Of a stretch of 49,379 bases of DNA, positions 21,014-49,273 are shown one piece after another. A program made the position numbers and the translations under genes. Below the pieces are notes generated by a model. It saw only the letters and a program-made list of their open reading frames with translations, did not search any database and had not been told where the DNA came from. This DNA comes from Escherichia coli. Lineage in GTDB: Bacteria; Pseudomonadota; Gammaproteobacteria; Enterobacterales; Enterobacteriaceae. The stretch is from NCBI RefSeq assembly GCF_003334315.1, contig NZ_QOWR01000034.1, one strand, 5' to 3'. Numbering within the stretch: position 1 is the stretch's first letter; each line of letters opens with the position of its first letter.

Positions 21014-21883
21014 TTAGCGATCGTCACTTAAATTAAGTAACTGCTTATCAAAACGCGATTCCTTCAGCGCTTCCTTGACCCGCTTCAAGTTATCTCTGAA
21101 TTTTGCACCGCGTCGCAAAGTAAATCCTGTCGCCAGCACATCTATCACGGTCAGCTGTGCAAGTCGAGAAACCATGGGCATATAAATGTCAGTATCTTCC
21201 GGTACGTCGAGGGTAATTGCCAGCGTTGCTTCCCGGGCGAGCGGGGTACCCGCAGAGGTGAGAGCAATCACCATGGCGTCGTTTTCGCGTGCCAGCTGCG
21301 CCAGCTCGACCAGATTTTTTGTTCTTCCAGTGTGAGAAATCAGCACCACCACGTCTCCGTCGCTACAATTCATACAACTCATGCGTTGCAGCACGATATC
21401 ATCGGAGTACACCACCGGAACATTAAAACGAAAGAACTTATTCATCGCATCGTGGGCAACGGCGGCTGAAGAGCCTAATCCGAAAAAGGCGATTTTCTTT
21501 GCCTGAGTGAGCAAGTCGACGGCGCGGTTGATGGCAGATTTATCCAGTGAATGACGGACATGATCAAGCGTTGCCATTGCGGACTCAAATATTTTCCCTG
21601 TGTATGATTCAACGCTGTCATCTTCATTGACATTGCGATTAACATAGGGAGTGCCATTCGCCAGACTCTGTGCCAGATGAAGTTTAAAATCAGGAAAACC
21701 GCGCGTGTCCATGCTGCGACAGAAACGATTCACCGTCGGTTCGCTAACATTGGCTTCCAGTGCCATAGCAGCAATACTCGAATGGATCGCGTTATCGGGC
21801 GAAGCCAGAATGACCTCGGCAACTTTGCGCTCTGATTTGCTCAAATGTTCCAGCTGAGACTGGATTTTTTCCAGCATATTCAT
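21014..21883 (-). CDS. hexR: RpiR/HexR-family transcriptional regulator (HTH plus SIS domain)
   Basis: 289-aa ORF, divergent from zwf; matches recalled YebK/HexR. Confidence 0.88.
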
Positions 21884-22220: not shown

Positions 22221-23696
22221 ATGGCGGTAACGCAAACAGCCCAGGCCTGTGACCTGGTCATTTTCGGCGCGAAAGGCGACCTTGCGCGTCGTAAATTGCT
22301 GCCTTCCCTGTATCAACTGGAAAAAGCCGGTCAGCTCAACCCGGACACCCGGATTATCGGCGTAGGGCGTGCTGACTGGGATAAAGCGGCATATACCAAA
22401 GTTGTCCGCGAGGCGCTCGAAACTTTCATGAAAGAAACCATTGATGAAGGTTTATGGGACACCCTGAGTGCACGTCTGGATTTTTGTAATCTCGATGTCA
22501 ATGACACTGCTGCATTCAGCCGTCTCGGCGCGATGCTGGATCAAAAAAATCGTATCACCATTAACTACTTTGCCATGCCGCCCAGCACTTTTGGCGCAAT
22601 TTGCAAAGGGCTTGGCGAGGCTAAACTGAATGCTAAACCGGCACGCGTAGTCATGGAGAAACCGCTGGGGACGTCGCTGGCGACCTCGCAGGAAATCAAT
22701 GATCAGGTTGGCGAATACTTCGAGGAGTGCCAGGTTTACCGTATCGACCACTATCTTGGTAAAGAAACGGTGCTGAACCTGTTGGCGCTGCGTTTTGCTA
22801 ACTCCCTGTTTGTGAATAACTGGGACAATCGCACCATTGATCATGTTGAGATTACCGTGGCAGAAGAAGTGGGGATCGAAGGGCGCTGGGGCTATTTTGA
22901 TAAAGCCGGTCAGATGCGCGACATGATCCAGAACCACCTGCTGCAAATTCTTTGCATGATTGCGATGTCTCCGCCGTCTGACCTGAGCGCAGACAGCATC
23001 CGCGATGAAAAAGTGAAAGTACTGAAGTCTCTGCGCCGCATCGACCGCTCCAACGTACGCGAAAAAACCGTACGCGGGCAATATACTGCGGGCTTCGCCC
23101 AGGGCAAAAAAGTGCCGGGATATCTGGAAGAAGAGGGCGCGAACAAGAGCAGCAATACAGAAACCTTCGTGGCGATCCGCGTCGACATTGATAACTGGCG
23201 CTGGGCCGGTGTGCCATTCTACCTGCGTACTGGTAAACGTCTGCCGACCAAATGTTCTGAAGTCGTGGTCTATTTCAAAACACCTGAACTGAATCTGTTT
23301 AAAGAGTCGTGGCAGGATCTGCCGCAGAATAAACTGACTATCCGTCTGCAACCTGATGAAGGCGTGGATATCCAGGTACTGAATAAAGTTCCTGGCCTTG
23401 ACCACAAACATAACCTGCAAATCACCAAGCTGGATCTGAGCTATTCAGAAACCTTTAATCAGACGCATCTGGCGGATGCCTATGAACGTTTGCTGCTGGA
23501 AACCATGCGTGGTATTCAGGCACTGTTTGTACGTCGCGACGAAGTGGAAGAAGCCTGGAAATGGGTAGACTCCATTACTGAGGCGTGGGCGATGGACAAT
23601 GATGCGCCGAAACCGTATCAGGCCGGAACCTGGGGACCCGTTGCCTCGGTGGCGATGATTACCCGTGATGGTCGTTCCTGGAATGAGTTTGAGTAA
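22221..23696 (+). CDS. zwf: Glucose-6-phosphate 1-dehydrogenase
   Basis: 491 aa; G6PD signature RIDHYLGKE and NADP-binding N-terminus [11 protein letters not shown]. Confidence 0.97.
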
Positions 23697-23720
23697 TATC
23701 TGCGCTTATCCTTTATGGTT

Positions 23721-23737
23721 ATTTTACCGGTAACATG
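23721..23737 (+). promoter_or_regulatory. GntR-type operator upstream of edd
   Basis: ATTTTACCGGTAACATG contains the perfect palindrome TTACCGGTAA, as in GntR operators of gluconate genes. Confidence 0.55.
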
Positions 23738-23775
23738 ATCTTGCACAGATTGTAGAACAATTTTTACACTTTCAG

Positions 23776-23808
23776 GCCTCGTGCGGATTCACCCACGAGG
23801 CTTTTTTT
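23776..23808 (+). terminator. Rho-independent terminator after zwf
   Basis: GCCTCGTG, loop, CACGAGGC, then TTTTTTT. Confidence 0.8.
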
Positions 23809-23930
23809 ATTACACTGACTGAAACGTTTTTGCCCTATGAGCTCCGGTTACAGGCGTTTCAGTCATAAATCCTCTGAATGAAACGCGTTGTGAATCATCC
23901 TGCTCTGACAACTCAATTTCAGGAGCCTTT

Positions 23931-25742
23931 ATGAATCCACAATTGTTACGCGTAACAAATCGAATCATTGAACGTTCGCGCGAGACTCGCTCTGCTTATC
24001 TCGCCCGGATAGAACAAGCGAAAACGTCGACTGTTCATCGTTCGCAGTTGGCATGCGGTAACCTGGCACACGGTTTCGCTGCCTGCCAGCCAGAAGACAA
24101 AGCCTCTTTGAAAAGCATGTTGCGTAACAATATCGCCATCATCACCTCCTATAACGACATGCTCTCCGCGCACCAGCCTTATGAACACTATCCAGAAATC
24201 ATTCGTAAAGCCCTGCATGAAGCGAATGCGGTTGGTCAGGTTGCGGGCGGTGTTCCGGCGATGTGTGATGGTGTCACCCAGGGGCAGGATGGAATGGAAT
24301 TGTCGCTGCTAAGCCGCGAAGTGATAGCGATGTCTGCGGCGGTCGGGCTGTCCCATAACATGTTTGATGGTGCTCTGTTCCTCGGTGTGTGCGACAAGAT
24401 TGTCCCGGGTCTGACGATGGCAGCCCTGTCGTTTGGTCATTTGCCTGCGGTGTTTGTGCCGTCTGGACCGATGGCAAGCGGTTTGCCAAATAAAGAAAAA
24501 GTGCGTATTCGCCAGCTTTATGCCGAAGGTAAAGTGGACCGCATGGCCTTACTGGAGTCAGAAGCCGCGTCTTACCATGCGCCGGGAACATGTACTTTCT
24601 ACGGTACTGCCAACACCAACCAGATGGTGGTGGAGTTTATGGGGATGCAGTTGCCAGGCTCTTCTTTTGTTCATCCGGATTCTCCGCTGCGCGATGCTTT
24701 GACCGCTGCCGCTGCGCGTCAGGTTACACGCATGACCGGTAATGGTAATGAATGGATGCCGATCGGTAAGATGATCGATGAGAAAGTGGTGGTGAACGGT
24801 ATCGTTGCACTGCTGGCGACCGGTGGTTCCACTAACCACACCATGCACCTGGTGGCGATGGCGCGCGCGGCCGGTATTCAGATTAACTGGGATGACTTCT
24901 CTGACCTTTCTGATGTTGTACCGCTGATGGCACGTCTCTACCCGAACGGTCCGGCCGATATTAACCACTTCCAGGCGGCAGGTGGCGTACCGGTTCTGGT
25001 GCGTGAACTGCTCAAAGCAGGCCTGCTGCATGAAGATGTCAATACGGTGGCAGGCTTTGGTCTGTCTCGTTATACCCTTGAACCATGGCTGAATAATGGT
25101 GAACTGGACTGGCGGGAAGGGGCGGAAAAATCACTCGACAGCAATGTGATCGCTTCCTTCGAACAACCTTTCTCTCATCATGGTGGGACAAAAGTGTTAA
25201 GCGGTAACCTGGGCCGTGCGGTTATGAAAACCTCTGCCGTGCCGGTTGAGAACCAGGTGATTGAAGCGCCAGCGGTTGTTTTTGAAAGCCAGCATGACGT
25301 TATGCCGGCCTTTGAAGCGGGTTTGCTGGACCGCGATTGTGTCGTTGTTGTCCGTCATCAGGGGCCAAAAGCGAACGGAATGCCAGAATTACATAAACTC
25401 ATGCCGCCACTTGGTGTATTATTGGACCGGTGTTTCAAAATTGCGTTAGTTACCGATGGACGACTCTCCGGCGCTTCAGGTAAAGTGCCGTCAGCTATCC
25501 ACGTAACACCAGAAGCCTACGATGGCGGGCTGCTGGCAAAAGTGCGCGACGGGGACATCATTCGTGTGAATGGACAGACAGGCGAACTGACGCTGCTGGT
25601 AGACGAAGCGGAACTGGCTGCTCGCGAACCGCACATTCCTGACCTGAGCGCGTCACGCGTGGGGACAGGACGTGAATTATTCAGCGCCTTGCGTGAAAAA
25701 CTGTCCGGTGCCGAACAGGGCGCAACCTGTATCACTTTTTAA
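23931..25742 (+). CDS. edd: Phosphogluconate dehydratase (Entner-Doudoroff)
   Basis: 603-aa ORF, IlvD/Edd dehydratase family; followed by eda. Confidence 0.97.
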
Positions 25743-26420: not shown

Positions 26421-26426
26421 AAGTCA

Positions 26427-26455
26427 AAATGCCCGATCGAGGATCGGGCATTTTT
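26427..26455. terminator. Bidirectional terminator between convergent eda and purT
   Basis: AAAATGCCCGATC, GAG loop, GATCGGGCATTTTT. Confidence 0.85.
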
Positions 26456-29487: not shown

Positions 29488-29668
29488 TTCCGCTCTCTGG
29501 ATAGCCTGAAGTTGACTATTTCGGGCTATCCAGAATCGCACAGCCATTTGAACAGGCTGATTTTCTCTGTCTGCATAACATTCGATATCCGCGCCATTAC
29601 CTGTCATCATCTAAGCAATGACTCCCCTGTTTCGCTTGCATCCCCGGTGAGTTTTGCCACCCTTATAA

Positions 29669-45770: not shown

Positions 45771-45802
45771 AATCAGGCACAAGAAATTGTGCCTGATTTT
45801 TT
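45771..45802 (+). terminator. Rho-independent terminator after prc
   Basis: AATCAGGCACAA, GAAA loop, TTGTGCCTGATT, then TTTTTT. Confidence 0.8.
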
Positions 45803-46854: not shown

Positions 46855-46887
46855 AAAAAGCGCGTCCTGATCGACGCGCTTTTTTTA
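46855..46887. terminator. Bidirectional terminator between convergent htpX and yebQ
   Basis: AAAAAGCGCGTC, loop, GACGCGCTTTTTTT. Confidence 0.8.
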
Positions 46888-49226: not shown

Positions 49227-49235
49227 TGAGAGTAA

Positions 49236-49273
49236 GAACCTGTCGGAATATCAAACAGACAGGTTCTTTATTT
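49236..49273 (+). terminator. Rho-independent terminator after kdgR
   Basis: GAACCTGTC, 13-nt loop, GACAGGTTC, then TTTATTT. Confidence 0.7.

What the first reader, a model, noticed from the sequence alone, without database searches (positions are those of the whole stretch)
23816..23865. Perfect 11-bp inverted repeat with 28-nt spacer in the edd leader
TGACTGAAACG (23816-23826) and CGTTTCAGTCA (23855-23865) are exact reverse complements, about 65 nt upstream of the edd start and downstream of the GntR-type palindrome at 23724-23733. No annotated feature I know of explains it. It could be a second operator, or an RNA hairpin in the 5' UTR affecting stability or translation.
Basis: seen in the sequence. 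Interest (0 to 1): 0.35.

Follow-up and report, generated by a model that had tools for sequence, protein, structure and literature searches.

The report
Cra repressor sites at edd promoter
The inverted repeat is real, but it is two separately conserved half-sites for the known carbon-flux repressor Cra at the E. coli edd promoter and not a hairpin, so it is an ordinary, already-described kind of control element.

Summary
It does not behave as a pairing unit. Across 28 Enterobacteriaceae the arms show no covariation, while the neighbouring zwf terminator hairpin covaries strongly in the same test. Natural E. coli alleles change either arm without compensation, and only the core CTGAAACG persists. 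That core is the strong half-site of the Cra/FruR operator. The left arm lies inside ACTGAAACGTTTTTGC (23818-33), which scores as high against the published Cra motif as the ppsA and aceB operators. It straddles the start point of a deeply conserved promoter (-35 TTCACC in the terminator loop, -10 TACACT), so the left arm is mostly not transcribed. Published reviews state that edd-eda is Cra-repressed through a site that overlaps or follows the RNA-polymerase site. The right arm and a third copy (23875-86) are extra Cra-like half-sites; they may also form a small 5'-UTR hairpin with each other (weak covariation). GntR and KdgR motifs do not match. The known fruB double Cra operator gives the same long-spacer inverted-repeat picture. 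The transcription start is inferred, not measured. Verdict: real, explained, low novelty.

The parts
23816..23826 (+). Left arm of the reported inverted repeat (TGACTGAAACG). It runs from the last base of the inferred -10 through the predicted start point.
   Evidence: position relative to the promoter
23818..23833 (+). Cra/FruR operator 'A', ACTGAAACGTTTTTGC, about -5 to +11 relative to the predicted start. This is the functional element that contains the left arm.
   Evidence: Scores 21/26 against the published motif gcTGAAtCGaTTCAgc, tied second best in 49 kb, equal to the ppsA and aceB operators in the same scheme, with background of about 1 per 16 kb. A site scoring 20 or more sits at the same position in about 36 of 59 Enterobacteriaceae. 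Literature.
23855..23865 (+). Right arm of the reported inverted repeat (CGTTTCAGTCA).
   Evidence: polymorphic at 23862 (G/A/C) within E. coli
23848..23863 (-). Cra-like site 'B' on the minus strand (ACTGAAACGCCTGTAA). The left half is perfect and the right half poor in E. coli; the site is stronger in sister genera.
   Evidence: Score 16/26 in E. coli; 17-21 in Citrobacter, Trabulsiella, Leclercia, Enterobacter, Lelliottia and Silvania, including species where site A is lost
23874..23886 (+). Third copy of the motif (CTGAATGAAACGC), direct relative to the left arm and inverted relative to the right arm. Cra-like half-site 'C' (16-mer 23877-92, score 15).
   Evidence: D2, I3
23854..23886 (+). 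Candidate 5'-UTR hairpin formed by the right arm and the third copy (8 bp, a mismatch, then 3 bp; 9-nt loop).
   Evidence: -10.8 kcal/mol, z = -5.0. Covariation above shuffles, 3/500 and 1/500, but RNAalifold predicts no consensus pairs.
23891..23896 (+). Further TGAATC half-site in the leader.
23776..23808 (+). zwf intrinsic terminator: an 8+2-bp GC-rich hairpin followed by T7.
   Evidence: -17.3 kcal/mol, z = -5.95. Strong covariation: 91.5% paired against 82.5% in shuffles, 0/500.
23788..23793 (+). Inferred -35 hexamer TTCACC of the edd promoter, lying in the nearly invariant loop of the terminator hairpin.
23811..23816 (+). Inferred -10 hexamer TACACT (17-nt spacer). The predicted start is at 23822-23824, which is NC_000913.3 1934711-1934713 on the minus strand.
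   Evidence: Nearly invariant TTTATTACACT across about 50 species. Top-ranked sigma-70 candidate in E. coli and in at least 37 of 51 species. Coordinates.
23721..23736 (.). GntR-type operator O1 (ATTTTACCGGTAACAT), context only.
   Evidence: (I18)
23943..23958 (.). GntR-type operator O2 (TTGTTACGCGTAACAA) inside the first codons of edd, context only.
   Evidence: (I4)

Best explanation
The repeat is the by-product of two oppositely oriented copies of the strong Cra (FruR) half-site CTGAAACG in the edd regulatory region. It is not a structure-forming element. The left arm belongs to a full-strength Cra operator (ACTGAAACGTTTTTGC, 23818-33) that straddles the start point of the gluconate-inducible edd promoter (-35 TTCACC, 23788-93; -10 TACACT, 23811-16). 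When fructose-1-phosphate and fructose-1,6-bisphosphate are low, Cra sits on this operator and blocks RNA polymerase from opening or leaving the promoter. On glycolytic substrates the effectors release Cra. The right arm (about +33) and a third copy (about +62) are additional Cra-like half-sites. They may help recruit Cra or add a roadblock, as the two cooperatively bound operators of fruB do. Shown here: the motif match and its calibration, independent conservation of the arms, absence of covariation, and the published fact that Cra represses edd through a site that overlaps or follows the polymerase site. Inferred: the exact transcription start, that the published site is this 16-mer, and any role for the right arm and third copy.
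For: Motif. Site 23818-33 scores 21/26 against the published Cra motif. It ties for second best in 49 kb. It equals the top sites upstream of ppsA (21) and aceB (21), lies between pck (19) and pykF (22) / fruB (24), and the background rate for 21 or more is about 1 per 16 kb. It matches fruB O1, TGAAACGTTTCA, at 10 of 12 positions. [quoted passage not shown] Not a stem. No covariation between the arms: 68.1% paired against 67.5% in shuffles, 198/500, whereas the adjacent terminator hairpin gives 0/500 in the same test. E. coli alleles change 23862 (G to A or C) and 23818 (A to C) without compensation. Citrobacter has TGAAAC on the left and GATTCA on the right, which breaks pairing but keeps TGAAWC. 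Independent conservation. Site A is kept in many genera that lack site B, and site B is kept in the Enterobacter group where site A is lost. Promoter. TTCACC-N17-TACACT is the top sigma-70 candidate and is nearly invariant. Precedent. The fruB double Cra operator region also reads as long-spacer inverted repeats, including CGCGCTGAAAC-N24-GTTTCAGCACG.
Against: No direct binding data at these coordinates could be retrieved. The original papers (Ramseier 1995, Shimada 2011, Egan 1992) are not held, and the ChIP-exo supplement is absent. The transcription start is inferred from conservation only; no TSS table contained it. Sites B and C score only 16 and 15 of 26 as full operators, which is background level. 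A comparative reconstruction places the Entner-Doudoroff genes in the Cra regulon only in Escherichia and Salmonella, whereas the site-A-like sequence is far more widespread, so part of that conservation could have another cause. My scoring scheme is a simple weighted consensus, not a trained matrix.
Confidence: 0.7

Rival explanations
1. The two arms pair in RNA to form a hairpin, in the edd 5' UTR or in zwf read-through transcripts. The hairpin would affect stability, processing or translation.
For: If both arms are transcribed, the hairpin is strong: -19.4 kcal/mol, extended to 14 pairs, z = -4.6. It is the preferred fold of 23816-23886.
Against: No covariation, while the method detects the neighbouring terminator. 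Polymorphisms within E. coli and substitutions in E. whittamii, E. albertii and Citrobacter are uncompensated. The left arm starts only 8 nt after the terminator T-tract and overlaps the last base of the conserved -10 and the start point, so promoter transcripts would hold only its last 3-5 bases. Only read-through of a strong terminator would carry both arms. No U-tract follows the hairpin, and the Shine-Dalgarno sequence is about 55 nt further on. There is no Rfam match; the best E-value is 1 or worse.
Confidence: 0.05
2. The right arm's real partner is the third copy. Together they form a small hairpin (23854-23886, extendable to about 23849-23893) near +32 to +64 of the edd mRNA, which stabilises or otherwise tunes the transcript. 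This is compatible with the main explanation for the left arm.
For: -10.8 kcal/mol, z = -5.0, and it appears in the MFE fold of the predicted UTR. Covariation is above shuffles and above all slid controls. In Citrobacter youngae the change to GATTCAGC is matched by GCTGAAT downstream.
Against: RNAalifold finds no consensus pairs on the clade alignment. The tool's own caveat gives a 5-25% false-positive rate for this shuffle measure with related sequences. Only 62-70% of cells pair. In the Enterobacter group only about 5 bp survive. The first 80 nt of the predicted UTR are not unusually stable overall, with z about -0.5. The conserved bases can equally be read as the Cra-like site B.
Confidence: 0.3
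3. The arms are operators for GntR or KdgR, the regulators the reader named.
For: The KdgR half-site as I remember it contains TGAAAC.
Against: The GntR palindrome TGTTACSSGTAACA occurs only at 23722-35 and 23944-57, even allowing 2 mismatches. The KdgR-type palindrome TGAAACANTGTTTCA has no match in the leader, even allowing 3 mismatches. The arms are 28 nt apart, which does not fit either compact palindrome.
Confidence: 0.03
4. The perfect 11-bp match is pure coincidence and neither arm has any function.
For: About one such inverted repeat is expected per 49 kb by chance. The three bases beyond CTGAAACG drift freely.
Against: The TGAAWCG cluster has p of about 0.013. Site A is position-locked to the -10 and conserved across many genera, and site B is conserved across several genera. 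Site A matches the Cra motif at the level of proven operators.
Confidence: 0.07

Closest known systems
Cra (FruR) operators of the E. coli fruBKA promoter (O1 TGAAACGTTTCA, O2 TGAATCGTTTCA)
   Same: Same half-site. There are two or more sites on opposite strands tens of base pairs apart, so the region reads as a long-spacer inverted repeat: 22-nt arms 51 nt apart, and CGCGCTGAAAC-N24-GTTTCAGCACG. The target is a repressed glycolytic-type operon. The fruB sites are reported as cooperatively bound.
   Different: The fruB operators are near-perfect palindromes (24/26 each). At edd only site A is strong (21/26), and the right arm and third copy are good half-sites only (16 and 15). Spacing differs: 30 and 29 bp centre to centre at edd, against 67 bp for fruB O1-O2. 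Cooperative binding at edd is untested.
Published Cra site of edd-eda (Ramseier et al. 1995, as cited by later reviews)
   Same: Described as overlapping or following the RNA-polymerase binding site, which is where 23818-33 lies relative to the inferred -10. From memory, not verified here, the published edd operator is this same 16-mer.
   Different: I could not read the primary paper, so identity of coordinates is inferred. Nothing I could read mentions the extra half-sites.
Cra repression sites at pfkA and tpiA (ChIP-exo)
   Same: The repressor site overlaps core promoter elements.
   Different: Those sites overlap the -35 and -10. The edd site overlaps the start point and the early transcribed region.
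5'-UTR stabiliser or attenuator hairpins
   Same: A thermodynamically strong local inverted repeat in a leader region.
   Different: There is no covariation for the reported pair, no U-tract, and the 5' arm is not transcribed from the promoter.

Membership tests
Cra/FruR operator | 16-bp imperfect palindrome matching gcTGAAtCGaTTCAgc with a strong left half | tested here: met
   Site A (23818-33) scores 21/26, equal to the top sites at ppsA and aceB and above pck. Background is about 1 per 16 kb.
Cra/FruR operator | The same motif criterion applied to the right arm (site B) and the third copy (site C) | tested here: inconclusive
   The TGAAACG half is perfect, but the full-site scores of 16 and 15 are at background level. 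Site B reaches 17-21 in sister genera.
Cra/FruR operator | Lies in the control region of a gene shown to respond to Cra | tested here: met
   edd/eda are listed as Cra-repressed in several papers.
Cra/FruR operator | For repressed genes, the site overlaps or lies downstream of the polymerase-binding site | tested here: met
   Site A spans about -5 to +11 of the conserved TTCACC-N17-TACACT promoter. This agrees with the published statement. The start point is inferred, not measured.
Cra/FruR operator | Direct binding by Cra at these bases, released by fructose-1-phosphate or fructose-1,6-bisphosphate | not testable with these tools
   The primary binding papers and the ChIP-exo tables are not held.
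Structured RNA element (5'-UTR hairpin) | Both arms are present in the transcript | tested here: not met
   The left arm overlaps the last base of the -10 and the predicted start at 23822-24. This rests on an inferred TSS.
Structured RNA element (5'-UTR hairpin) | Base pairs are maintained by compensatory change | tested here: not met
   68.1% paired against 67.5% in shuffles, 198/500. The positive control gives 0/500. Alleles are uncompensated.
Structured RNA element (5'-UTR hairpin) | Match to a curated RNA family | tested here: not met
   The Rfam scan of 23400-24200 returned only hits with E-value 1 or worse, all far below their gathering scores.
GntR (LacI-type) operator | Palindrome TGTTACSSGTAACA | tested here: not met
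   Only 23722-35 and 23944-57 match; the arms do not.
KdgR operator | Compact palindrome TGAAAC-A-N-T-GTTTCA (consensus recalled from memory) | tested here: not met
   No match within 3 mismatches in the leader.
Intrinsic terminator / attenuator | GC-rich hairpin immediately followed by a U-tract | tested here: not met
   The right arm is followed by TAAATCCTCTG. The terminator scan reported no sites anywhere in 23600-24000, but its 3-8-nt loop limit also made it miss the genuine zwf terminator at 23776-23808, so this null carries little weight.

The most novel reading that the evidence does not exclude
The three motif copies (centres at about +3, +33 and +62, spaced 30 and 29 bp apart) might form a dual-purpose module. 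As DNA they would be a phased array that lets Cra oligomerise over the start point and early transcribed region. As RNA the shared middle segment would pair either with the upstream copy (only in zwf read-through transcripts, -19 kcal/mol) or with the downstream copy (promoter transcripts, -11 kcal/mol), giving the two transcript classes different leaders and possibly different fates.
Probability: 0.08. Interest if true: 0.45.

Novelty: already known. Interest (0 to 1): 0.15.

Why it matters
It matters little beyond tidy annotation. The result shows that a conspicuous long-spacer inverted repeat in a bacterial leader can simply be two oppositely oriented half-sites of a global regulator, and that a covariation test with a nearby positive control can tell this apart from RNA structure. 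It also gives a compact working map of the edd control region: a terminator whose loop carries the -35, a Cra site on the start point, and two in-phase GntR operators bracketing the promoter. That map could guide engineering of Entner-Doudoroff flux. The wide conservation of the Cra-like site at +1 suggests that Cra control of edd may be older than a published regulon reconstruction implies.

Tried and rejected
1. Experimental transcription start. I searched the supplements of Conway 2014 (none held), Kim 2012 for E. coli (only 3-6-read starts inside zwf) and for Klebsiella (no entry), Ettwiller 2016 and Mendoza-Vargas 2009. Thomason 2015, the Kroger Salmonella papers and the SEnd-seq paper are not held.

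2. Primary papers. Shimada 2011, Murray and Conway 2005, Egan 1992, Tsunedomi 2003 and the Peekhaus and Conway minireview are not held. I could not attempt Ramseier 1995, which has no PMC id in the reference lists I read.

3. Sequence-string searches of the literature for the operator gave only unrelated primer hits. The one relevant hit gave only promoter-replacement primers.

4. The Rfam scan found nothing meaningful.

5. The built-in promoter/terminator scan found nothing.

6. GntR and KdgR motifs were rejected.

7. A mobile or repeated-element origin was rejected, because there is one copy per genome.

8. An alternative upstream promoter, TTGCAC-N18-TACACT (-10 at 23765-70, score 7.9 against 9.7), was considered. 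I judged it unlikely because its -35 is not conserved and its transcripts would begin at the terminator hairpin.

Full report
OBSERVATION. The window is E. coli. The region is the 234-bp spacer between zwf (22221-23696) and edd (23931-25742), and it is present in all 5426 complete E. coli genomes. It differs from MG1655 at a single base, 23745. TGACTGAAACG (23816-26) and CGTTTCAGTCA (23855-65) are perfect reverse complements 28 nt apart. A single 11-bp inverted repeat with a spacer of 60 nt or less is expected about once per random 49 kb (mean 1.02), so the repeat alone is not remarkable. A third copy, CTGAATGAAACG, lies at 23874-85, direct to the left arm and inverted to the right arm (D2/I3). 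Three of the window's 15 TGAAWCG heptamers lie within 66 bp here, which happens in about 1.3% of random windows.

ANATOMY OF THE REGION. Fifty Enterobacteriaceae leaders, taken from 80 loci found through the Edd protein, align well. The nearly invariant blocks, in order, are:

- a GntR-type palindrome, TTTTACCGGTAACAT (23721-36);
- a GC-rich hairpin (23776-23801) followed by T7, which is the zwf terminator (-17.3 kcal/mol, z = -5.95). Its stem changes by compensatory substitution (91.5% paired against 82.5% in shuffles; 26 double-change cells against 5.4; 0/500), but its loop GGATTCACC is almost invariant;
- TTTATTACACT;
- a block CTGAA(A/G)CG(A/T)TTTTGCC;
- the Shine-Dalgarno region;
- a second GntR-type palindrome, TTGTTACGCGTAACAA, inside the first codons of edd (23943-58).

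The loop hexamer TTCACC (23788-93) and TACACT (23811-16) are always 17 nt apart. They form the top-scoring sigma-70 candidate in E. coli and in at least 37 of 51 species. I therefore infer that the edd promoter overlaps the zwf terminator and starts transcription at 23822-24 (NC_000913.3 about 1934712). This is an inference; no TSS table I could reach contains the site. Independently of the exact hexamers, the left arm begins only 8 nt after the terminator T-tract. Any promoter that escapes the terminator must therefore overlap or follow the left arm.

IS THE REPEAT A PAIRING ELEMENT? No. On a 28-species alignment the 11 proposed pairs show no covariation: 68.1% paired against 67.5% in shuffles, 198/500, and a covariation score of 0.127 against 0.120. 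The terminator control on the same kind of alignment gives 0/500. Within E. coli, 23862 in the right arm is G, A or C in different strains, while its partner 23819 is fixed. Strain AST215 carries both 23818 A-to-C and 23862 G-to-A, and neither change restores a pair. About a third of genomes (1800 of 5422) differ somewhere in the 50 nt. E. whittamii and E. albertii carry one and two uncompensated right-arm changes. Several Citrobacter species have TGAAAC on the left but GATTCA on the right. Only the core CTGAAACG survives.

WHAT THE ARMS ARE. CTGAAWCG is the strong half of the Cra/FruR operator, whose published motif is gcTGAAtCGaTTCAgc; the fruB operators are TGAAACGTTTCA and TGAATCGTTTCA. 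With a simple weighted-consensus score, ACTGAAACGTTTTTGC (23818-33) gets 21 of 26 and ties for second best in the window. The same scheme recovers the classic operators upstream of fruB (24 and 24), pykF (22), ppsA (21), aceB (21) and pck (19). A score of 21 or more occurs about once per 16 kb of background. Site A spans about -5 to +11 of the inferred promoter. [quoted passage not shown] A site scoring 20 or more sits at the same place relative to the -10 in about 36 of 59 species (for example GCTGAAGCGATTTTGC). It is degraded in Klebsiella, Raoultella, Kluyvera and the E. cloacae group. The right arm is the strong half of a minus-strand site (ACTGAAACGCCTGTAA, score 16). That site is better in Citrobacter, Trabulsiella, Leclercia, Enterobacter, Lelliottia and Silvania (17-21), and it persists where site A is lost, so the two arms are independent elements. 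The third copy scores 15. GntR-type and KdgR-type palindromes do not match the arms. The fruB promoter, which has two cooperatively bound Cra operators on opposite strands, gives the same picture in the repeat finder, including CGCGCTGAAAC-N24-GTTTCAGCACG.

THE RIGHT ARM'S OTHER POSSIBLE LIFE. If both arms were in one RNA they would form a -19.4 kcal/mol hairpin (z = -4.6). From the inferred start, only the right arm and the third copy can pair (23854-86, -10.8 kcal/mol, z = -5.0), and that hairpin appears in the MFE fold of the predicted UTR. This alternative stem shows covariation above shuffles and above slid controls (3/500; 1/500 and 3/500 for the extended helix). A Citrobacter example has GATTCAGC matched by GCTGAAT. 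Against this, RNAalifold predicts no consensus pairs, only 62-70% of cells pair, the Enterobacter group keeps about 5 bp, and the tool's caveat warns of 5-25% false positives for this measure. I rate a functional 5'-UTR hairpin at about 0.3. It is compatible with the main explanation.

MECHANISM. Most likely (0.7): Cra binds site A over the start point and prevents open-complex formation or promoter escape under gluconeogenic, low fructose-phosphate conditions, and the effectors release it. This global control is layered on gluconate-specific control by GntR at the two flanking operators. The right arm and third copy may add weak Cra binding or an RNA hairpin. The 11-bp perfection of the repeat in K-12-like strains is incidental.

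COMPARISON AND NOVELTY. This is a member of a well-known class, Cra operators at repressed glycolytic promoters, and almost certainly the site already reported for edd. I could not read the primary paper, so identity of coordinates rests on a secondary statement and on my memory. The extra half-sites and the candidate hairpin are minor additions. Interest is low (0.15). The most novel reading not excluded is a dual DNA/RNA module that distinguishes read-through transcripts from promoter transcripts (probability about 0.08).

Noticed in passing
window 23721-23736 and 23943-23958: Two GntR-type operators bracket the inferred edd promoter at about -94 and +128, and neither overlaps it. Their centre-to-centre distance is 222 bp in E. 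coli. Across 59 Enterobacteriaceae it falls into three groups, 218-223, 209-214 and 232 bp, so leader indels come in roughly 10-bp steps and helical phase is kept. This suggests repression by DNA looping. O2 is conserved at the nucleotide level inside the coding sequence.
   Followed up: partly
window 23776-23816: The nearly invariant loop of the zwf terminator hairpin (GGATTCACC) appears to be the -35 of the next promoter, and the terminator T-tract is its spacer. The stem covaries while the loop does not.
   Followed up: partly
loci L025-L063, aligned to window 23818-23833: A Cra-like 16-mer (typically GCTGAAGCGATTTTGC, score 21) sits at the same position after the -10 in Kosakonia, Buttiauxella, Cedecea, Atlantibacter, Mangrovibacter, Shimwellia and others. 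A published regulon reconstruction limits Cra control of the Entner-Doudoroff genes to Escherichia and Salmonella.
   Followed up: partly
window 21719-21734 (minus strand): The best match to the Cra motif in the whole window, GGTGAATCGTTTCTGT (22/26), lies inside the yebK/hexR reading frame, about 150 nt into the gene and about 490 bp upstream of zwf. zwf is also reported as Cra-repressed.
   Followed up: no
window 23837-23881: A 14-codon ORF (ATG AGC TCC ... GAA TGA) spans the spacer, the right arm and part of the third copy. It has no obvious Shine-Dalgarno sequence. Its ATG is kept in the four Escherichia species but is absent in Citrobacter and beyond.
   Followed up: no
window 23761-23770 and 23807-23816: Direct repeat TTTTTACACT / TTATTACACT. 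The upstream copy gives a second, weaker promoter candidate (TTGCAC-N18-TACACT, score 7.9), whose transcripts would start at the base of the terminator hairpin (D7, 50).
   Followed up: partly
L088 3580-3625 (MG1655 fruB promoter): Besides the two known Cra operators, there is a third GCTGAAAC half-site 24 nt from O1 in inverted orientation, so clusters of extra half-sites may be common at Cra targets.
   Followed up: no
window 26426-26454, 29496-29534, 45771-45798, 46855-46884, 49234-49268: These are the other perfect inverted repeats of 11 bp or more with short spacers in the window. The first lies just after eda and looks like a terminator. The others were not examined.
   Followed up: no
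P. putida gap-1/edd intergenic region (literature): A published in-silico Cra site there reads TGAAACGGTTTT, close to E. coli's TGAAACGTTTTT, although the authors did not find edd to be Cra-regulated in that organism.
   Followed up: no
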